IMG/VR virus record: IMGVR_UViG_3300043410_001642
Location: 105,120-141,368 of that record
DNA: 36,249 bases
From: a virus
Taxonomy: Duplodnaviria > Heunggongvirae > Uroviricota > Caudoviricetes
Strand: one strand, 5' to 3'
The notes under the pieces are model-generated. The model did not search any database and was not told the origin of the DNA. It saw only the letters and a list, made by a program, of their open reading frames with translations. Positions 4,146-33,896 of this stretch are shown piece after piece. Position 1 is the first letter of the stretch; every line of letters begins with the position of its first letter. The translations under genes were made by a program, and so were the position numbers.

Positions 4146-4177
4146 TTTGGAAAATTCAATAATTTTTCATATATTTA
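4146..4177 (+). promoter_or_regulatory. Bacteroidota-type sigma-A promoter (-33/-7)
   Basis: TTTGG 4146-4150 and TATATTTA 4170-4177; ATG at 4185. Confidence 0.7.
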
Positions 4178-4184
4178 CAAAGTT

Positions 4185-4478
4185 ATGACACAACAAGAAT
4201 TCAATACAAAATACAAACAATACATACCTGAAGGTTGGGGTGGATTGGAATTCGGTATACCAGAAGTTACTGATTATTTGGATAGTATTATGGATTATGG
4301 ATTAGTGAATCTACCTAATTTCAAATTACATCAAATCAAATTAAAGTTTGGTATGTGTAGATTCTATTTTGAAACATCTATGGAAAATAAAAAGCTAGAA
4401 GCGATTATTGAATTTGGAATAGAACAACAAGTGAATAATATATTAATGAAAATATTAAAAGATGGAAAACTTAAATAG
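4185..4478 (+). CDS. Hypothetical phage protein with QIKLKFGxxRFY motif
   Basis: ORF track 97 aa; motif resembles a common phage QxKEKFGxLRFY family. Confidence 0.65.
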   Translation: MTQQEFNTKYKQYIPEGWGGLEFGIPEVTDYLDSIMDYGLVNLPNFKLHQIKLKFGMCRFYFETSMENKKLEAIIEFGIEQQVNNILMKILKDGKLK

Positions 4479-5589
4479 TGTTTGTTACATTGCGGTAATC
4501 AATGAGATTAGAGCAATTGATGGTGCTGATAACATTGAATTAGCAGTAGCAGGTGGATGGAATTGTATTACTAAAAAAGGAGAACAAAAGGTTGGTGATA
4601 TGACTATGATTGCCACAACTGATGCGGTAATTCCTTTTGAACTTTCCGAAAAGATGGGAGTTACTAACTATTTGAGAAACGGAGGAAGAGTTAAGACTGT
4701 AAAGTTGAGAGGTGTATATTCAGAGTGTTTAATCATTCCTATGAAACATATTCCATTTATGGAAAATTACTATGAAGGTAAGGATATGATGTATGCAATG
4801 AATATCTACAAATATGAACCACCTGTTAAGACCGTTCAATTAGCAAGTGGTAGAAAGATTCGTTATCAAGATAATCCAAACTTTCATGTCTATTACAAAT
4901 TCCCCAACTTAAAGAATGTGCCAGGAATGTTTAATGAGGATGACATGGTTGAAATCACTCGTAAGATTCACGGAACAAATGCCAGATATGGAATTGTTAA
5001 GAAAACTAAATTATCCTTATTTGATAAGATTAAGAAATTCTTACGATTAGCAGATAAGTGGATTGATTATGAATTCGTAGTTGGTTCTCATAATGTAGAA
5101 AAGGGTTCTGATTCACAAGGTTTCTATGATACTAATGTATGGTATGAAATTGAAAAAAAATATGACATCAAAAACAAATTATGGAAATATGTACGAGCAT
5201 ATGAACCAGCGGTAATAGGTGATGGTGTTACCCTATATGGTGAGATTTACGGAGCTGGAATTCAAAAGGGATATGATTATGGGTTGAAAGAGATTGAGTT
5301 CGTAGGATTTGATATAAAGGGTAATGGTGAGTATTTACCTACTTACAATGCTTGGGCAATAATTGAAAAACAATTAGAATTACCATATGTGAAGGTTTTA
5401 CATTATGGCGATTGGTCACAAGAAGTTCAAGATAAGTTTGTATTCAACAACTTCATCAAAGGAACAAAAGTACCACATGAAGGTATTGTAATCAAATACC
5501 ATACAGGTGAAAGACAAAAGATTGCTAAAGTAATCAACCCAGATTATTTAATCTATGGTGAGAAACATAACATTGGGGATTCACATTGA
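4462..5589 (+). CDS. ATP-dependent RNA ligase, Rnl2/DRB0094 family
   Basis: N-terminal ADNIELA..GWNCITKKG module; motif I RKIHGTN, III GEIYG, IIIa FVGFDI, IV EGIVIK, V AKVIN. Confidence 0.88.
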   Translation: MENLNSVCYIAVINEIRAIDGADNIELAVAGGWNCITKKGEQKVGDMTMIATTDAVIPFELSEKMGVTNYLRNGGRVKTVKLRGVYSECLIIPMKHIPFMENYYEGKDMMYAMNIYKYEPPVKTVQLASGRKIRYQDNPNFHVYYKFPNLKNVPGMFNEDDMVEITRKIHGTNARYGIVKKTKLSLFDKIKKFLRLADKWIDYEFVVGSHNVEKGSDSQGFYDTNVWYEIEKKYDIKNKLWKYVRAYEPAVIGDGVTLYGEIYGAGIQKGYDYGLKEIEFVGFDIKGNGEYLPTYNAWAIIEKQLELPYVKVLHYGDWSQEVQDKFVFNNFIKGTKVPHEGIVIKYHTGERQKIAKVINPDYLIYGEKHNIGDSH

Positions 5590-5594
5590 TAATC

Positions 5595-5620
5595 AATGGG
5601 TTAGAAATAACCCATTTTTT
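5595..5620 (+). terminator. Intrinsic terminator
   Basis: AATGGGTT-agaaat-AACCCATT followed by a T run. Confidence 0.75.
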
Positions 5621-5621
5621 A

Positions 5622-5653
5622 TTTGGAAATGTGAGCACTTTTTCGTATATTTG
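5622..5653 (+). promoter_or_regulatory. Bacteroidota-type promoter for the Prs/Nampt/NDT operon
   Basis: TTTGG 5622-5626, TATATTTG 5646-5653. Confidence 0.8.
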
Positions 5654-5672
5654 AATATAATAAAAAGATAAA

Positions 5673-6551
5673 ATGCAGATATTAAATCTAACAAACTTTG
5701 AAGAATCTAACATTAAGTTCTTCATAAATCAATTCCCCGATGGGCAACAATCTATTACCATTGATTTCAAATCGGACATTACCTTAAAGCTAGATAAAAC
5801 AATTCGTATAAAATCCAGAATGAATTCATTTAAGGATGTTGAATTGATTATTTGTGCTAATCAATCTCTGAAAGATTTGGGAGTTGAGAATGTAGAATTA
5901 TATGTTCCCTATTTTTTAGGAGGTAGAAGTGATAGAAGATTTCTAGCCGGTCAAACTAACTATCTTAAGAATGTTATTTGCCCGATTATTAATTCACAAG
6001 GATTCTCAAAAGTTTATGTAGTGGATCCTCATAGTGATGTGTTGGAAGCGTGTTTGAATAACTTTAATAAATTTACTAATAATAGTATAGTTGAATATAC
6101 ATTGGATAAACTTAATGGTCGTTCCTCTCAAACTATGTTAGTATCTCCCGATGCCGGTGCATTAAAAAAGATTTATGATATTGCTAAAGATTTCAATATC
6201 AAAAATGTAGTAACTGCATCAAAGGTTAGAGATATTGAAAGTGGTAATATTGTTAGAACCGAATTACCAACGATGGATTTAACTGATATAGAACAAATTA
6301 TTATTATTGATGATATATGTGATGGAGGTAGAACCTTTATTGAATTGGCTAAAGTAATTAAAGAACAAACGGATAAGCCGATTTATTTGGTTGTTACTCA
6401 TGGTATATTCAGTGGAGGATTTGAAAAGTTAAGTGATGTATTAGATGGTATCTTCTGCACGAATAGTATTAAAAATATTGACTTTGATATTGTTAAAGTT
6501 CAATCAAGACAAAATAGTTCAGATTTCGTAAAACAATTAAATATATTCTAA
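5673..6551 (+). CDS. prs: Ribose-phosphate pyrophosphokinase homolog (candidate NARP1 Adps)
   Basis: FPDGQ, YVPYFLGGRSDRRF, VDPHS, VSPDAGA, PRT motif IIIIDDICDGGRTF. Confidence 0.88.
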   Translation: MQILNLTNFEESNIKFFINQFPDGQQSITIDFKSDITLKLDKTIRIKSRMNSFKDVELIICANQSLKDLGVENVELYVPYFLGGRSDRRFLAGQTNYLKNVICPIINSQGFSKVYVVDPHSDVLEACLNNFNKFTNNSIVEYTLDKLNGRSSQTMLVSPDAGALKKIYDIAKDFNIKNVVTASKVRDIESGNIVRTELPTMDLTDIEQIIIIDDICDGGRTFIELAKVIKEQTDKPIYLVVTHGIFSGGFEKLSDVLDGIFCTNSIKNIDFDIVKVQSRQNSSDFVKQLNIF

Positions 6552-6554
6552 AAT

Positions 6555-8018
6555 ATGAACCCATTATTATTAACCGACGGTTACAAAACAGGTCATCATC
6601 AGCAATATCCTAAAGGAACAACTTTAGTATATTCAAACTTCACACCCCGTTCTAACAAATATGCACCGAAAGGATGTGATGAAGTAGTATCATTCGGGCA
6701 ACAAATGATTATGAAACAAATTCATGAAGCATTTGAAACGGAGTTCTTCTCTAAACCAAAGGATGAAGTATGTGGTGAGATGAAGAAAGAGTTAAGTTTA
6801 TATTTGGGAACTGAATATGATGTTACACATTTTGAGAAGTTACATGATTTAGGATATCTACCTATCAATGTTAAAGGTATTGAAGAAGGAACATTAGTTC
6901 CAATGAAAGTACCTGTATTAACAATCTATAATACATTGCCAGAGTTCTATTGGGTAACAAACTACTTAGAAACAATCATTTCTAACCTATTATGGAAACC
7001 AATGACATCTGCTACAATTGCACACACATATCGTAAGGTATTGACTAAGTGGCAAGAAAAGACAGATGCTGAAAAAGGTTGGTTTGTTGATTGGCAAGGG
7101 CATGATTTCTCTATGAGAGGAATGGATAGTATTGAAGCGACTATTGCAAGTGGATTGGGACACTTAACATCATTTAGTGGAACGGATTCATTACCTGCAA
7201 TTGGTGGAGCAAGAAAATTCTATGGAGAAGAAGGATTCGTTGGAGGTTCAGTAAATGCTACCGAACATAGTGTAATGTGTGCAGGTGGTAAAGAAGATGA
7301 AATAGAAACATTCCGTAGATTATTAAACACATATCCAACTGGCATCTTATCAGTGGTAAGTGATACATGGGATTTATGGAAAGTATGTACCGAACATATC
7401 GTAACTCTTAAAGAAGAAATCTTAGCAAGAGATGGTAAATTGGTTATACGACCTGATAGTGGAGACCCGGTTGATATTCTTTGTGGTAAGATGTTCCCAT
7501 TAGGTGCAACATTGACAGGAAGACAAATCAGCGAAAGTAAAGGTGTTATTCAATTACTATGGGAAGCGTTTGGTGGAACAACAAATGAGCAAGGATATAA
7601 AGTATTAGATTCTCATATCGGTGCAATCTATGGTGATAGTATTACAATTGATAGAGCAAATGAAATTTGTGAAAGATTAGAAAGAAAAGGATTTGCATCT
7701 ACTAATGTTGTATTAGGTATTGGTTCATTCACTTATCAGTATAACACAAGAGATACATTTGGATTCGCAATGAAAGCAACATATGTTGAAGTAAATGGTG
7801 AAGCAAGAGAAATCTTCAAAGACCCAATTACCGATGATGGTACAAAGAAATCTGCCACAGGTTTATTGGCTGTGTCAAGAGATGCATTTGGCAACATTGC
7901 TCTTAATGATAAAGTTGGTTGGGATTTAGAATCATTAGGATTATTGAAACCTATCTATGTGGATGGTGTATTCGGAGAACAAACAACATTAACTGAAATT
8001 AAAAACCGATTAAAATAA
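6555..8018 (+). CDS. nadV: Nicotinamide phosphoribosyltransferase homolog (candidate NARP1 Namat)
   Basis: LLTDGYKTGH, HDFSMRG, ATEHSVMC, SVVSDTWD, VIRPDSGDP, IYGDSIT, FAMKAT, KDPITDDGTKKSATG. Confidence 0.92.
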   Translation: MNPLLLTDGYKTGHHQQYPKGTTLVYSNFTPRSNKYAPKGCDEVVSFGQQMIMKQIHEAFETEFFSKPKDEVCGEMKKELSLYLGTEYDVTHFEKLHDLGYLPINVKGIEEGTLVPMKVPVLTIYNTLPEFYWVTNYLETIISNLLWKPMTSATIAHTYRKVLTKWQEKTDAEKGWFVDWQGHDFSMRGMDSIEATIASGLGHLTSFSGTDSLPAIGGARKFYGEEGFVGGSVNATEHSVMCAGGKEDEIETFRRLLNTYPTGILSVVSDTWDLWKVCTEHIVTLKEEILARDGKLVIRPDSGDPVDILCGKMFPLGATLTGRQISESKGVIQLLWEAFGGTTNEQGYKVLDSHIGAIYGDSITIDRANEICERLERKGFASTNVVLGIGSFTYQYNTRDTFGFAMKATYVEVNGEAREIFKDPITDDGTKKSATGLLAVSRDAFGNIALNDKVGWDLESLGLLKPIYVDGVFGEQTTLTEIKNRLK

Positions 8019-8494
8019 TGGTAGTAGTTAAACCCGGAAACGATAACTTATATTATAGTAAGAATAATGTCAAAATATTTTTAGCAGGTTCTATTGAGAT
8101 GGGAGCAGCTGAAGAATGGCAGAAAGTAATTGAAGATACATTTAGACATAAATCTGAATTAGTGATATTCAATCCTCGTAGAGATGATTGGGATAGTAGT
8201 TGGGAACAAAAAGAATCAAATGGGCAATTCAACTATCAAGTTAATTGGGAGTTGGATAGATTAACCGAATCAGATATCATTTTTATGTATTTTGCACCGG
8301 ATACTAAATCACCTATCAGTTTATTAGAATTAGGATTATATGCTGGAAGTAAGAAAATGATTGTAGTTTGTCCAGATAGTTTTTGGAGAAAGGGTAATGT
8401 TGATATTGTATGTAATAGATATGATATTCCTATTTATGAAACATTGGATAAAGGAATTGGTGCTTTGAGAACCAGATTGAAAGATGTAAGATAA
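8018..8494 (+). CDS. Nucleoside 2-deoxyribosyltransferase-like (NDT superfamily) protein
   Basis: IFLAGSI, FNPRRDDW, QVNWEL, SPISLLELG; ATG overlaps the upstream TAA. Confidence 0.85.
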   Translation: MVVVKPGNDNLYYSKNNVKIFLAGSIEMGAAEEWQKVIEDTFRHKSELVIFNPRRDDWDSSWEQKESNGQFNYQVNWELDRLTESDIIFMYFAPDTKSPISLLELGLYAGSKKMIVVCPDSFWRKGNVDIVCNRYDIPIYETLDKGIGALRTRLKDVR

Positions 8495-8495
8495 A

Positions 8496-8527
8496 TTTGG
8501 AAATGTAAAATAATAATAGTATATTTG
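8496..8527 (+). promoter_or_regulatory. Bacteroidota-type promoter for the DIP1984-like gene and RNA
   Basis: TTTGG 8496-8500, TATATTTG 8520-8527. Confidence 0.75.
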
Positions 8528-8548
8528 TAAAAATAAAATCATAAAACA

Positions 8549-8977
8549 ATGAATGTAAAACAGGCATTAAAACAAAAGAACAAATTAGTAACTGAATTGA
8601 AAGCTAGTTATGAGATTTTGAAAAAGTATAACTCAATTGAGGAAGGTAATCCTCGTAGATATTCAATGAATGATACATTGGATAAAATTACTAACTTATC
8701 AAATGAGTTAGTAGAGTTAAAAGCACAAATTCATAAAGCAAATCAACCGGTGTATGATAAAATCTTTGCATTGGCAGAGTTGAAAGGATTGGTAAAGGAA
8801 TTAAAGAAAGTTCCAACGGATGAAGGAAAGCAAGTGGAAAGATATGGAAGTGTTGCTTCAGTAAAAGAAGTAGAATTAACTATTGTAGATATCCAAAACA
8901 AAGTTGATATCTTAACTACGAAAATTGAAGAGTTGCAAAATGAATTGGATATTCATAATGCGAATACTCAAATCTAA
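8549..8977 (+). CDS. DIP1984-family-like coiled-coil protein
   Basis: All-helical; N-terminal ALKQKNKL...NSIEEG, central IHKAN, C-terminal KIEELQNELDIHNANTQI resemble that family. Confidence 0.6.
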   Translation: MNVKQALKQKNKLVTELKASYEILKKYNSIEEGNPRRYSMNDTLDKITNLSNELVELKAQIHKANQPVYDKIFALAELKGLVKELKKVPTDEGKQVERYGSVASVKEVELTIVDIQNKVDILTTKIEELQNELDIHNANTQI

Positions 8978-8982
8978 AAATA

Positions 8983-9186
8983 TTGAGTGAGTGGGGTTTG
9001 AAACTGATTGATTAGTTTATTCTTACAATTCTACTATGATACCAAATAGCGGATGAACGAATAAGATAATGAATAATTAACAAACTTCAACAATATTAGG
9101 GTCATTTGTCGCGTAATTTCAATACCATCAAACCTCTTTGAAACCTGGATAACCTTTTTAATCCGAATCATTCCTCACAAACTCAA
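8983..9186 (+). ncRNA. Candidate ~204-nt structured RNA
   Basis: No ORF; ends pair (TTGAGT-GA-GTGGGG 8983-8996 with CCTCAC-AA-ACTCAA 9173-9186); inner helices 9005-9009/9166-9170, 9012-9022/9071-9080, 9147-9150/9161-9164. Confidence 0.6.
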
Positions 9187-9213
9187 ACTTATTAAACCAC
9201 TAAAAATTAAAAT

Positions 9214-9477
9214 ATGAACGCATTAATCGTTTATTACATCATTTGTATTATTTATTGTTTCTATCAACTGAATAAGAAATATAATAATAGAGGTGTTGAA
9301 TATGGAACATCACCAGAGTTGGATTCAATTATGGTATTAGTTATGGCATGGGTGTTAGCACCTATTGATGTATCTATTACTTGGATTAGAATGGTGAAAA
9401 ACGCTGAAGAAGCTAGAATTAAACATAGTAAAATAGATACAACTGATTTCAAAACTGAAAAAAGTAATATCTATTAG
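9214..9477 (+). CDS. Small membrane protein
   Basis: Two hydrophobic segments. Confidence 0.7.
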   Translation: MNALIVYYIICIIYCFYQLNKKYNNRGVEYGTSPELDSIMVLVMAWVLAPIDVSITWIRMVKNAEEARIKHSKIDTTDFKTEKSNIY

Positions 9478-9485
9478 AATAAAAT

Positions 9486-9571
9486 AGAGAGGTGGTAGAG
9501 TTGGTTGAATACACCGGTCTTGAAAACCGGCAGATGTAAAAGTCTCGGGGGTTCGAATCCCTCCCTCTCTG
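9486..9571 (+). tRNA. tRNA-Ser (anticodon TGA), type II; CCA not encoded
   Basis: Acceptor AGAGAGG/CCTCTCT, anticodon arm CCGGT-CT TGA AA-ACCGG, long variable arm, GTTCGAATCC T loop, G73. Confidence 0.95.
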
Positions 9572-9579
9572 CACTTAAT

Positions 9580-9786
9580 ATGTTAGAGTTTAAGAAACCA
9601 ATACCAGTAGTAGTAGAAGGAAACAAAGATGGATATGCAATCTATGTTACTGATAGCGGAATGTTTGAAAATGATATTTGGTGTGTGGTACTATGTGAAG
9701 GTGGTGTTGTAAGACATTATCGTAGTGACCAAATCAGAATATTTTTCAATGCGACTTTTGATATAGAAAAGGATAAAACATTGTAA
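9580..9786 (+). CDS. Hypothetical protein (true start after the tRNA)
   Basis: MLEFKKPIPVV...; the track start at 9505 lies inside tRNA-Ser. Confidence 0.7.
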   Translation: MLEFKKPIPVVVEGNKDGYAIYVTDSGMFENDIWCVVLCEGGVVRHYRSDQIRIFFNATFDIEKDKTL

Positions 9787-9972: not shown

Positions 9973-10491
9973 ATGGATTACAAAGAATACATTTCCGATG
10001 TTCCCGATTTCCCTAAGAAGGGTGTAATGTTTAGAGATATAACTCCATTATTGGCTTCTCCTAAAATTTTTAATAATGTAATTGATGACCTTTCTTTATT
10101 ATTAGATGAATCTTTTGATGAAGAGGTTAAGTTATTGGCGGGGATTGAAGCGAGAGGATTCTTAATTGGTGCTGCATTGGCATCTTTGAATGGCAATGGG
10201 TTTGTACCAATCCGTAAAGAAGGAAAACTACCTCCACCTAAAGTAGCAACATATTCTACAAAGGAATATGGTGTTGATATGTTAGAGGTGAAAGAGAGTA
10301 TTGTTCAGCAAGATATTATTTTAGTTGATGATGTATTGGCAACCGGAGGAACATTGAAAGCATCAGAGAAGTTGTTAAATAGTGCTGGATACAATGTAGT
10401 GGGAGCAATCACACTAATAGATTTAACTTATTTACATTCTGAAGATATACTTATAGGAGGAAAGAAGGTTATTAGTTTGATACAATACTAA
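9973..10491 (+). CDS. apt: Adenine phosphoribosyltransferase
   Basis: VPDFPKKGVMFRDIT, GIEARGF, IRKEGKLP, KEYG, LVDDVLATGGT. Confidence 0.92.
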   Translation: MDYKEYISDVPDFPKKGVMFRDITPLLASPKIFNNVIDDLSLLLDESFDEEVKLLAGIEARGFLIGAALASLNGNGFVPIRKEGKLPPPKVATYSTKEYGVDMLEVKESIVQQDIILVDDVLATGGTLKASEKLLNSAGYNVVGAITLIDLTYLHSEDILIGGKKVISLIQY

Positions 10492-11571: not shown

Positions 11572-13218
<1,647 letters not shown>

Positions 13219-13244
13219 CCCCAAAATAGGGTAAAAATAGTGTG

Positions 13245-13283
13245 AAAAAGGCTTGGTAATTCAAGCCTTTTTTCGTATATTTG
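13245..13283 (+). promoter_or_regulatory. Promoter embedded in a terminator-like hairpin
   Basis: AAAAAGGCTTG-gtaatt-CAAGCCTTTTT stem containing TTGG; TATATTTG 13276-13283. Confidence 0.75.
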
Positions 13284-13304
13284 GGTATGAAAAAGAGTCA
13301 AAAT

Positions 13305-14198
13305 ATGAACTTAGGTTATGCCTGTATTAATATGAGCATGGGTAAGAATGTATCTACCAACCGAACAATGGTTAAGAAAACCTTTGATTTGAAAGGATTA
13401 GATTATGTATCCGAACTTGCTCTTAAAAATGCTTCCGATATCATTAAGATATTAGAATGGAATCGTATGAATGGAATTAAGTTATTCCGTTTATCATCCG
13501 CTTTAATTCCTTGGGGTGATAAGTTAGATTTAACGCAACTCAAAGATTACAAAGAGATTAAGAGTGAGTTAAAGAAAGCCGGTGATTTCGCTAAGTTTTG
13601 GGGTATGAGAATCACATCTCACCCAGGCCCTTTCAATGTATTAGTATCTCCAAATGAAAATGTTGTAGAGAATACCATATCGGATTTAGAATTGCATGGT
13701 AAGATATTTGATATGATGGGATTAGAAAAATCTCCATACAACAAAATCAACATACATTGTAATGGTGTGTATGGTGATAAACAATCTGCTATGGATAGAT
13801 TTTGTGAGAACTTTAAACGATTATCACCATCAGTTCGTAAGAGATTAACAATAGAGAATGATGATAAAGGTAGTATGTATTCAGTAAGTGATTTGTTTTA
13901 TATTCATGATAAGATAAAGATACCTATTGTATTTGATTACCATCATCACCAATTTTGTACCGGTGGTTTTAGTGAAAAAGCGGCATTAGAGTTGGCAATA
14001 ACAACATGGCCTGAAGGTATTAAACCTATTGTTCACTATTCAGAATCAAAAGCATTGCATGAAAACAATAGTAAAGAAAAACCTCAAGCTCATTCTGATT
14101 ATATTAATTCATTACCAAATACTTATGGGTGTGATGTAGATATTATGGTGGAAGCTAAAGCTAAGGAATTGGCAATATTACCTTTTATTAATAAATAA
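13305..14198 (+). CDS. uvsE: UV DNA damage endonuclease (start may be 13287)
   Basis: MNLGYACIN, LFRLSS, ITSHPG, IHCNG, IENDD, FDYHHH, HYSES, QAHSDY, MVEAKAKE. Confidence 0.95.
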   Translation: MNLGYACINMSMGKNVSTNRTMVKKTFDLKGLDYVSELALKNASDIIKILEWNRMNGIKLFRLSSALIPWGDKLDLTQLKDYKEIKSELKKAGDFAKFWGMRITSHPGPFNVLVSPNENVVENTISDLELHGKIFDMMGLEKSPYNKINIHCNGVYGDKQSAMDRFCENFKRLSPSVRKRLTIENDDKGSMYSVSDLFYIHDKIKIPIVFDYHHHQFCTGGFSEKAALELAITTWPEGIKPIVHYSESKALHENNSKEKPQAHSDYINSLPNTYGCDVDIMVEAKAKELAILPFINK

Positions 14199-30754: not shown

Positions 30755-30777
30755 AAAATATTTGGAATATTCAATAA
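30742..30777 (+). pseudogene. 11-codon stub of a 12th paralog
   Basis: ATGCTCACAATAAAAAATATT = MLTIKNI, then promoter sequence and TAA. Confidence 0.55.
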
Positions 30778-30792
30778 TTTTTCGTATATTTG
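30761..30792 (+). promoter_or_regulatory. Bacteroidota-type promoter in an AT hairpin
   Basis: TTTGG 30761-30765, TATATTTG 30785-30792. Confidence 0.8.
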
Positions 30793-33864: not shown

Positions 33865-33896
33865 TTTGGAAAATCCAATAATTTTTCGTATATTTG
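33865..33896 (+). promoter_or_regulatory. Promoter in a hairpin, near-leaderless start
   Basis: TTTGG-aaaat-CCAATA; TATATTTG 33889-33896; ATG 4 nt later. Confidence 0.8.

What the first reader, a model, noticed from the sequence alone, without database searches (positions are those of the whole stretch)
8496..9186. DIP1984-like protein with its own promoter followed by a ~200-nt structured RNA: candidate protein-RNA system
Seen: a dedicated promoter (8496-8527), a 142-aa coiled-coil gene, then 236 ORF-free bases in an otherwise gap-free region. The ends of the gap pair as 6 bp + 2x2 loop + 6 bp (8983-8996/9173-9186), with further helices at 9005-9009/9166-9170, 9012-9022/9071-9080 and 9147-9150/9161-9164. 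Six (C/G)AAAC(C/T) motifs recur (9000, 9081, 9129, 9140, 9178, 9184), as in RNAs with repeated protein-binding sites. The DIP1984 family has no settled function that I know of. Inference: the protein and RNA form a co-transcribed ribonucleoprotein, either a toxin/antitoxin-like or protein-sponge pair or a scaffold, placed between the NAD and tRNA counter-defence genes.
Basis: partly seen in the sequence, partly recalled or inferred. Interest (0 to 1): 0.85.

Follow-up and report, generated by a model that had tools for sequence, protein, structure and literature searches.

The report
Phage protein gene with partner RNA
A small phage gene of the uncharacterised DIP1984/DUF6847 family is always followed by its own conserved, folded ~205-base RNA that is in no RNA catalogue, and bacterial members of the family carry a comparable downstream RNA, which points to an unrecognised protein-plus-RNA module.

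Summary
The core observation is real. Window 8983-9186 (+) is a conserved structured RNA. Its closing stem and a second long-range helix covary across three phage clades: 87-95% of cells are paired against 24-46% when the partners are slid, and 0 of 500 shuffles reach the observed values. G·U pairs place it on the + strand. It matches no Rfam 15 family. The conserved repeat is UCAA(A), not (C/G)AAAC(C/T).

The RNA starts right after the stop codon of the 142-aa gene in every related locus that could be tested, while both flanks vary. There is one copy per complete jumbo-phage genome. In 19 of 63 loci a terminator closes the unit.

The protein is a distant DIP1984/DUF6847 relative (hhalign 96%; 3kdq Z 12.9).

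New result: canonical DIP1984 genes in Actinomycetota also carry a conserved, covarying ~220-nt downstream element. Acinetobacter and Enterococcus plasmid copies have comparable unannotated tails.

Best reading: a co-transcribed protein plus cognate RNA. Physical binding and function are not shown.

The parts
8497..8526 (+). Promoter-like site TTGGAA-N17-TATATTT in front of the gene
   Evidence: The same bipartite motif occurs 6 times in the window, all on the + strand and in front of genes, against 0.14 expected. It is conserved upstream of the orthologous gene in most clade-1 loci although the upstream genes differ. Promoter function is inferred.
8549..8977 (+). Gene for a 142-aa helical protein, a distant DIP1984/DUF6847 relative
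   Evidence: ORF. AF2 model with pLDDT 85: three helices plus a beta-hairpin. Best structural match is 3kdq, at TM 0.76 and Z 12.9, rmsd 3.4, 138 residues aligned. hhalign against canonical DIP1984 proteins gives 96%, E 4.7e-9. 1537 representative clusters match at E<=1e-3.
8983..9186 (+). Whole structured RNA element (about 205 nt), starting 6 nt after the stop codon
   Evidence: Covariance models R1 and R2 score 205-240 bits here and hit the same position in all related loci. No Rfam family matches. G·U against A·C cells are 77:18 and 27:3, which fixes the + strand.
8984..8996 (+). P1, 5' strand of the closing stem (pairs with 9173-9185)
   Evidence: 11 pairs. 9 of them (A8) and 11 of them (A11) show changes on both sides with pairing kept.
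9173..9185 (+). P1, 3' strand of the closing stem
   Evidence: As for the 5' strand.
8999..9001 (+). P1 extension, 3 bp with 9168-9170
   Evidence: 96-100% of cells paired, with compensatory changes in the wide alignment.
9014..9022 (+). P2, 5' strand (pairs with 9147-9155; 8 bp with one mismatch)
Evidence: 5 of 8 pairs carry double changes, for example GC/AU at 9:7 and AU/UA at 9:8.
9147..9155 (+). P2, 3' strand
9034..9049 (+). P3 hairpin (4 bp: 9034-9037/9046-9049)
   Evidence: Compensatory changes in L006 and L021, and in 4 of 4 pairs in the wide alignment.
9050..9078 (+). Conserved purine-rich single-stranded block; family consensus GAUAA-nn-GAU-nn-UGAUAA
   Evidence: Near-invariant columns in A2 and A6 and in the family-wide consensus. 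It shows no excess complementarity to the UCAA block (mean z about 0).
9081..9136 (+). Array of UCAA(A) repeats ending in the conserved AAA(A/C)CUC word. TCAA lies at 9087, 9119 and 9128; a small hairpin forms at 9128-9130/9139-9141.
   Evidence: TCAA occurs 4.6 times per 215 nt in 64 non-redundant loci, against 1.5 in the flanks. The repeat positions are conserved columns.

Best explanation
Window 8497-9186 is a self-contained two-part module: a promoter, a gene for a small helical DIP1984/DUF6847-like protein, and, on the same transcript, a dedicated ~205-nt structured RNA.

The RNA is a long imperfect rod (P1, its extension and P2). The rod closes a ~125-nt loop that holds one small hairpin and otherwise presents conserved single-stranded words: a GAU-rich block and four to six UCAA(A) repeats spaced 7-10 nt apart.

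I propose that the protein, probably as a dimer or higher oligomer, binds these repeats, so that gene product and 3' RNA form a ribonucleoprotein. The rod would define the RNA domain and stabilise it, and may serve as a processing site.

Shown: the RNA is real, lies on the + strand, is under structural selection, is inseparable from the gene, and is often bounded by a terminator. Also shown: canonical bacterial family members carry a comparable downstream element.

Inferred: co-transcription, protein-RNA binding, and any downstream activity.
For: RNA reality
- Among 17 clade-1 sequences, 31 consensus pairs were predicted and 14 have compensatory changes.
- On the model-fitted alignments, 94.8% (A8) and 87.1% (A11) of cells are paired, against 24-46% with slid partners. 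17 and 28 pairs carry double changes, and 0 of 500 shuffles reach the observed values.
- G·U exceeds A·C by 77:18 and 27:3.

Linkage to the gene
- All 17 IMG/VR matches to a core RNA word lie in contigs that also carry the gene, except one contig that ends inside the RNA.
- The models hit directly after the stop codon in loci whose proteins are only 46-63% identical.
- Flanking genes differ on both sides.
- There is one copy in each of three complete 287-309 kb genomes.
- Where a ~63-aa ORF is inserted (L109, L111, L112), the RNA follows it.
- 19 of 63 non-redundant loci have a hairpin plus T-run 165-200 nt after the stop, against 1 of 63 control windows.
- The only GenBank phage hit (LR756500, 32% identity) shows the same layout by eye.

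Protein
- DIP1984 fold and profile homology.
- A homodimer model scores ipSAE 0.56 against 0.00 for the best of 3 controls. That mark was reached by 20 of 30 proteins solved as pairs of one chain and 1 of 23 solved as single chains. The runs agree in at least 98% of contacts and pLDDT is at least 90. My own alignment was used, so the counts hold only roughly. The relative 3kdq is a solved multi-chain entry, so the pass may come from memory.

Family-wide pattern
- Actinobacterial DIP1984 genes are followed 10-35 nt after the stop by a conserved ~220-nt element in 9 of 9 loci by nhmmer.
- That element has 26 predicted pairs, 12 of them compensatory, including long-range closing helices, and it carries repeated GCACA words.
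- Acinetobacter and Enterococcus plasmid copies have 150-320 nt unannotated tails. The Enterococcus tail ends in a terminator.
- Two Acinetobacter plasmids share the gene plus about 290 nt downstream, and similarity then stops.
Against: - No tool here tests protein-RNA binding.
- The protein is roughly neutral in charge by my own residue count and has no recognised RNA-binding domain.
- The phage RNA model does not detect the bacterial elements. The bacterial and phage RNAs may therefore be analogous rather than homologous.
- In the window's own clade no terminator follows the RNA, so the transcript may run on into downstream genes.
- The alignments used for the strongest counts were fitted to the model and lean towards the structure.
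- The central 100 nt shows no covariation, so its conservation could reflect something other than protein binding.
- The Acinetobacter and Enterococcus evidence rests on single or near-identical sequences.
Confidence: 0.55

Rival explanations
1. Cis-acting 3' UTR. The structured element only stabilises, processes or regulates the mRNA of the DIP1984-like gene, for example as a barrier to 3' exonucleases or as a site of autoregulatory feedback. It has no life as a separate RNA or RNP.
For: It starts 0-10 nt after the stop codon in all clades. It is often followed directly by a terminator. A long terminal rod is a typical protective feature.
Against: About 100 nt of near-invariant single-stranded sequence with ordered repeats is far more than a stabiliser needs. 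Linkage survives insertion of an extra ORF between gene and RNA. At the DNA level the RNA is as well or better conserved than neighbouring sequence (A2 mean column identity 78%).
Confidence: 0.2
2. Decoy or sponge for a host factor. The repeat array titrates a host RNA-binding protein or ribonuclease (of the Hfq, Rho, RNase or toxin-RNase kind). The protein is a helper or is functionally separate.
For: Arrays of short single-stranded repeats inside a stable scaffold are how known sponge RNAs are built; this rests on established knowledge of CsrB/RsmZ and CrcZ. The repeats are enriched 3-fold. The module sits in phages and plasmids.
Against: Strict co-inheritance with one particular protein family across phages and bacteria is not explained. 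The repeat word differs between lineages: UCAA in phages, GCACA in Actinomycetota, UACA-like in Enterococcus. This fits co-evolution with the adjacent protein better than a conserved host target.
Confidence: 0.12
3. Toxin-antitoxin-like or addiction pair. The protein is harmful and is held in check by its RNA, working like a type III system.
For: Patchy distribution: 8 of 201 and 12 of 401 actinobacterial genomes. Strong presence on small plasmids, with 369 records of which 339 are Acinetobacter, and in phages (287 IMG/VR loci). Neighbours in Corynebacterium are unrelated housekeeping genes.
Against: Gene order is the reverse of known type III systems. There are no tandem repeats. There is no ToxN/AbiQ-like nuclease fold or Pfam hit and no PADLOC family beyond a chance coiled-coil hit. 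Toxicity is untested.
Confidence: 0.08
4. DNA-level element. The conserved inverted repeats and short repeated words act as a DNA site (origin, iterons or a recombination or packaging site), not as RNA.
For: Repeated short words flanked by an inverted repeat can resemble iteron regions. The Acinetobacter module boundary lies just after the element.
Against: Helices tolerate G·U but not A·C (77:18 and 27:3), which is strand-specific and RNA-like. Only the + strand folds better than shuffles (z -1.79 against +1.29). The element always has the same orientation relative to the gene.
Confidence: 0.03

Closest known systems
DIP1984 family / Pfam DUF6847 ('septicolysin' in older annotation; structure 3kdq from Corynebacterium diphtheriae)
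   Same: Same length and single-domain build. Same fold (Z 12.9, TM 0.76). Full-length profile-profile match (96%). Related phage proteins reach or approach the family models. Canonical members also have a conserved downstream non-coding element.
   Different: The window protein scores far below both curated cut-offs: 19 against 70 bits and 13 against 27 bits. Identity to canonical members is about 14%. The family has no established function; 'septicolysin' is an inherited label.
Type III toxin-antitoxin systems (ToxIN, CptIN, TenpIN)
   Same: One protein gene plus one adjacent non-coding RNA with repeated words. Found on plasmids and phages, with a patchy distribution.
   Different: In those systems the RNA precedes the toxin, consists of 34-36 nt tandem repeats, and is cut by a ToxN-type nuclease (established knowledge). 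Here the RNA follows the gene, has no tandem repeats, is a single folded domain, and the protein has a different fold.
Ro60 (Rsr) with Y RNA / YrlA
   Same: A protein gene with a neighbouring ~100-200 nt RNA whose ends form a long stem closing a large loop. The actinobacterial DIP1984-linked element even carries a T-arm-like hairpin (GGGGTTCGACTCCCC).
   Different: No match to any Rfam family, including Y RNA families, in any locus. ARAGORN finds no tRNA-like gene. The adjacent protein is not of the TROVE/Ro type.
Protein-sponge RNAs (CsrB/RsmZ for CsrA; CrcZ for Hfq/Crc)
   Same: Several copies of a short single-stranded word displayed on a structured RNA; may work in a similar way.
   Different: The words are UCAA(A) and GAU, not GGA or A-rich CA motifs. 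The candidate partner is encoded in cis on the same transcript. There is no Rfam match.
6S RNA and phi29 pRNA (other ~170-200 nt protein-binding RNAs of bacteria and phages)
   Same: Similar size. A long terminal helix. Function through protein binding rather than base pairing.
   Different: No Rfam match. There is no central-bubble rod as in 6S, and no link to packaging genes or genome ends as for pRNA.

Membership tests
DIP1984 family (NCBIfam NF038048) | Score at or above the curated cut-off (70 bits) | tested here: not met
   19.2 bits, E 1e-3, but full-length (5-140 against 4-147 of 149). Relatives score 19-39 bits. Canonical actinobacterial proteins score 174-188 bits.
Pfam DUF6847 (PF20935) | Score at or above the gathering threshold (27 bits) | tested here: not met
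   The window protein scores 13.3 bits, E 0.08. The 40%-identical relative P0190 scores 27.3 bits, just over the threshold. Canonical proteins score 122-168 bits.
DIP1984/DUF6847 superfamily (remote homology) | Full-length profile-profile similarity to canonical members | tested here: met
   hhalign A5 against A16: probability 96%, E 4.7e-9, 141 columns. In a PDB profile search 3kdq is the top hit over its full length, E 0.014.
DIP1984/DUF6847 superfamily (remote homology) | Fold of 3kdq: three long helices with a beta-hairpin between helices 2 and 3 | tested here: met
   AF2 model pLDDT 85. Foldseek TM 0.76/0.71, probability 1.0. VIA-align Z 12.9, rmsd 3.4, 138 of 142 residues aligned; the next hit has Z 8.7.
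Any Rfam 15 RNA family | Covariance-model match to the element | tested here: not met
   No match up to E = 10 in 8400-9600 apart from the tRNA and chance rows. No match in 11 divergent phage loci or in 9 bacterial loci.
Type III toxin-antitoxin (ToxIN-like) | Antitoxin RNA made of tandem direct repeats, placed upstream of the toxin gene | tested here: not met
   Tandem Repeats Finder finds nothing in 8900-9300. The RNA lies downstream of the gene in all loci.
Type III toxin-antitoxin (ToxIN-like) | Toxin is a ToxN/AbiQ-type endoribonuclease | tested here: inconclusive
   No such Pfam or PADLOC hit, and the fold matches 3kdq instead. Nuclease activity was not tested.
Ro60-Y RNA module | A Y RNA or YrlA match and a neighbouring Ro60/TROVE gene | tested here: not met
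   No Rfam match. The neighbours scanned are NAMPT, a deoxyribosyltransferase-like protein, a PRTase and GroEL.
Intrinsically terminated stand-alone transcription unit | Promoter before the gene and a terminator after the RNA | tested here: inconclusive
   A promoter motif is present. A terminator follows in 19 of 63 related loci, but none follows in the window itself.

The most novel reading that the evidence does not exclude
DIP1984/DUF6847 ('septicolysin-like') proteins are the protein subunits of a previously unrecognised, ancient class of small ribonucleoproteins. In phages, plasmids and bacterial chromosomes alike, each gene comes with its own cognate ~150-250 nt structured RNA encoded immediately downstream. 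The RNA's lineage-specific short repeats (UCAA, GCACA, UACA) co-evolve with the protein. The phage version in this window would be one branch of that class.
Probability: 0.4. Interest if true: 0.85.

Novelty: categorically new. Interest (0 to 1): 0.78.

Why it matters
Three things would follow.

1. It would add a new, widespread structured RNA class. At least 287 IMG/VR loci carry the gene, and every locus tested carries the RNA. The class is absent from Rfam.

2. It would give the first functional handle on a domain-of-unknown-function family. That family is common on clinical Acinetobacter plasmids (339 PLSDB records) and carries a probably wrong 'septicolysin' label.

3. It offers a compact, easily testable system of about 700 bp: a promoter, a 142-aa protein and a 205-nt RNA. 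Because phages, plasmids and sporadic chromosomal loci all carry it, the module is likely to matter in conflicts between mobile elements and hosts or in RNA metabolism. The comparative pattern makes the question "what does DIP1984 do?" directly testable.

Tried and rejected
- Rfam, at gathering and permissive thresholds, on the window, on 11 divergent phage loci and on 9 bacterial loci: nothing.
- ARAGORN on the bacterial elements, despite the T-arm-like hairpin: no tRNA or tmRNA.
- Pairing between the GAU block and the UCAA block as a hidden helix: no excess complementarity, mean z about 0.
- Phage RNA model R2 on bacterial and plasmid loci: no hit, so homology of phage and bacterial RNAs is not established.
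- R2 with filters off on the most distant phage loci gave only weak rows, although some lie at the expected place. There the shared layout was judged by eye.
- tRNA linkage as a general feature: true only for the window's clade.
- A tie to NAD-salvage neighbours: those genes lie upstream in only one other locus.
- PHROGs and PADLOC: no informative family.
- phmmer against PDB with the single sequence: only coiled-coil noise.
- Scan of bacterial genomes for the phage-type protein: none found. Scan of IMG/VR with P0190: none.
- GenBank phages: a single uncultured huge phage, so no cultured system is available.
- Literature searches for DIP1984, DUF6847, and septicolysin together with RNA terms: no study of function or of a linked RNA.

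Full report
**What is in the window.** The region is AT-rich phage DNA from a 141-kb IMG/VR record. A 142-aa ORF lies at 8549-8977. It is followed by 236 bases with no plausible ORF, then an 87-aa ORF at 9214 and tRNA-Ser at 9486-9572. Upstream are NAMPT and a nucleoside deoxyribosyltransferase-like gene. As a single sequence this is only marginal (z -1.79); the minus strand folds worse than shuffles (z +1.29). No Rfam family matches, even at E = 10.

**The RNA is real.** I fetched 23 IMG/VR loci encoding relatives at 52-85% protein identity. All but the most distant (L023, 52% identical) keep a well-aligned stretch of about 205-215 nt directly after the stop codon. RNAalifold on 17 sequences gave 31 pairs, 14 of them with compensatory changes. 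I built a covariance model from these (R1) and then a broader one (R2). They find the element at the same place in further clades whose proteins are 46-63% identical to the window's.

Pair counts on the model-fitted alignments:

| Alignment | Sequences | Cells paired | Paired with slid partners | Pairs with double changes | Shuffles reaching observed |
|---|---|---|---|---|---|
| A8 | 22 | 94.8% | 24-44% | 17 of 31 | 0 of 500 |
| A11 | 33 | 87.1% | 32-46% | 28 of 31 | 0 of 500 |

These alignments were fitted to the model, which favours the structure. However, the MAFFT alignment gave the same helices. G·U cells outnumber A·C cells 77:18 in A11 and 27:3 in A2. The structure is therefore an RNA structure on the + strand.

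**Architecture in window coordinates.**
- P1 is 8984-8988/9181-9185 plus 8991-8996/9173-9178, extended by 8999-9001/9168-9170.
- A variable, individually paired stretch follows (about 9005-9014/9159-9170).
- P2 is 9014-9022/9147-9155.
- Together these form a long imperfect rod that closes a ~125-nt loop.
- Inside the loop lie a 4-bp hairpin (9034-9037/9046-9049) and two very short helices.
- The rest of the loop is near-invariant sequence without detectable pairing: a purine-rich block (family consensus GAUAA-nn-GAU-nn-UGAUAA), then four to six UCAA(A) words 7-10 nt apart, ending in AAA(A/C)CUC.
- TCAA occurs 4.6 times per 215 nt in 64 non-redundant loci, against 1.5 in the flanks.
- The two blocks are not complementary to each other.
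- The six SAAACY words exist and are locally dense. Half of them lie in paired, covarying strands, so they are not the conserved motif.

**Linkage to the gene.**
- A core RNA word finds 17 IMG/VR contigs. Sixteen also hold the gene, and the seventeenth ends inside the RNA.
- Neighbouring genes differ on both sides between loci.
- tRNA arrays surround the module only in the window's clade.
- Three complete genomes of 287-309 kb hold exactly one copy, next to the gene.
- An alignment-based scan found 287 IMG/VR loci with relatives.
- In L109, L111 and L112 a ~63-aa ORF is inserted after the gene, and the RNA follows it.
- In 19 of 63 non-redundant loci a GC-rich hairpin with a T-run sits 165-200 nt after the stop, that is, at the RNA's 3' end. 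Only 1 of 63 control windows has one.
- The promoter-like TTGGWA-N17-TATATTT at 8497-8526 recurs six times in the window, all on the + strand, against 0.14 expected. It is conserved before the orthologous gene.
- Promoter, gene, RNA and (often) terminator thus form one unit. Co-transcription is inferred, not measured.

**The protein.**
- Direct family scores are weak: NF038048 at 19 bits against a cut-off of 70, and DUF6847 at 13 bits against 27.
- The matches are nevertheless full-length. Intermediates score higher, and P0190 just reaches the Pfam threshold.
- A profile of 52 phage-type sequences aligns to canonical proteins with 96% probability.
- The AF2 model (pLDDT 85) matches 3kdq with TM 0.76 and Z 12.9, well above the next hit.
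- The ESM Atlas places it among viral clusters, some with DUF6847, and near a bacterial 'putative septicolysin' cluster.
- It is a divergent phage branch of the DIP1984/DUF6847 superfamily, not a member of the curated subfamily.
- A homodimer model passed: ipSAE 0.56 against 0.00 for the best of 3 controls. That mark was reached by 20 of 30 proteins solved as pairs of one chain and 1 of 23 solved as single chains. The runs agree in at least 98% of contacts and pLDDT is at least 90. My own alignment was used, and a related multi-chain structure exists, so this shows likeness at most.
- No function for the family turned up in the literature that could be searched.

**Canonical bacterial members.** Using a Corynebacterium genome as centre, NF038048 was found in 8 of 201 (class sample) and 12 of 401 (phylum sample) actinobacterial genomes.
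- Downstream of these genes lies a conserved ~220-nt element. Its features are an invariant GGTAGCC, a T-arm-like hairpin, CAGCYCAGCA, repeated GCACA words and GGTGAGGGYGGG.
- RNAalifold gives 26 pairs, 12 of them compensatory, including long-range closing helices.
- An nhmmer profile finds the element 10-35 nt after the stop in 9 of 9 loci. It hits a tenth locus partially, and three more show the element by eye.
- Rfam and ARAGORN find nothing there.
- In one Corynebacterium the neighbours are menC- and menB-like genes.
- In PLSDB, 369 plasmids carry the gene, 339 of them from Acinetobacter.
- An A. baumannii copy is followed by 320 unannotated bases.
- An E. faecium copy is followed by ~150 nt with UACA words and a strong terminator.
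- Two Acinetobacter plasmids share the gene plus about 290 nt downstream, after which similarity ends.
- The phage model does not detect these elements. Common descent of the RNAs is therefore not shown; common layout is.

**Interpretation.** The simplest account of a protein family that carries a structured, repeat-bearing RNA at its 3' end, in phages and in bacteria, is that the RNA is the protein's partner. I put this at about 0.55.

| Rival | Confidence | Main objection |
|---|---|---|
| Purely cis-acting UTR | 0.2 | Does not explain 100 nt of ordered, invariant single-stranded words |
| Decoy for a host factor | 0.12 | Does not explain the strict tie to one protein family or the lineage-specific repeat words |
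| Toxin-antitoxin-like pair | 0.08 | Distribution fits, but order, repeats and fold do not match type III |
| DNA site | 0.03 | Contradicted by the G·U bias |

**Limits.**
- There are no expression data and no binding data.
- The host is unknown.
- Only one GenBank phage relative exists, and it is uncultured.
- The strongest covariation counts use model-fitted alignments.
- Evidence outside phages and Actinomycetota is anecdotal.

Noticed in passing
L004:4408-4782 and L013:4404-4749: ARAGORN calls tmRNA genes, with tag peptides, in two related jumbo-phage loci. They sit just downstream of the module and of tRNA-Ser.
   Followed up: no
L021:1072-5820; L006:18-4025: Large tRNA arrays (24 and 15 genes) surround the module in relatives of the window's clade. 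In L014 and L016 the gene directly follows a tRNA-Ser, and in L021 a tRNA-Glu starts at the RNA's 3' end.
   Followed up: partly
window 4147-4176, 5623-5652, 8497-8526, 13253-13282, 30762-30791, 33866-33895: A phage-specific promoter-like consensus, TTGGWA-N17-(C)GTATATTT. Six copies, all on the + strand and in front of genes, against 0.14 expected.
   Followed up: partly
L109, L111, L112: about 190 nt directly after the DIP1984-like gene: A ~63-aa ORF with paired Cys motifs (zinc-ribbon-like) is inserted between the gene and the RNA in one subclade.
   Followed up: no
window 4462-8494, 9973-10491 and 11584-14198: A cluster of auxiliary genes: RNA ligase, a PRPP-synthetase-like gene, NAMPT, a nucleoside deoxyribosyltransferase-like gene, a PRTase, a phage GroEL (11584-13218) and UvdE. 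In L043 a GroEL gene lies directly upstream of the DIP1984-like gene.
   Followed up: no
window 9214-9477: An 87-aa hydrophobic ORF follows the RNA. It recurs after the RNA in about 11 clade-1 loci but is absent from others, so it is not an obligate part of the module.
   Followed up: partly
L267-L275, about 100-140 nt after the DIP1984 stop codon: The actinobacterial downstream element holds a hairpin with the tRNA T-arm consensus (GGGGTTCGACTCCCC), although no tRNA or Rfam family is called.
   Followed up: partly
window 9473-9600: A sub-threshold Rfam match to sX4 (32 bits against a gathering score of 70) overlaps tRNA-Ser. It most likely just reflects the tRNA.
   Followed up: no
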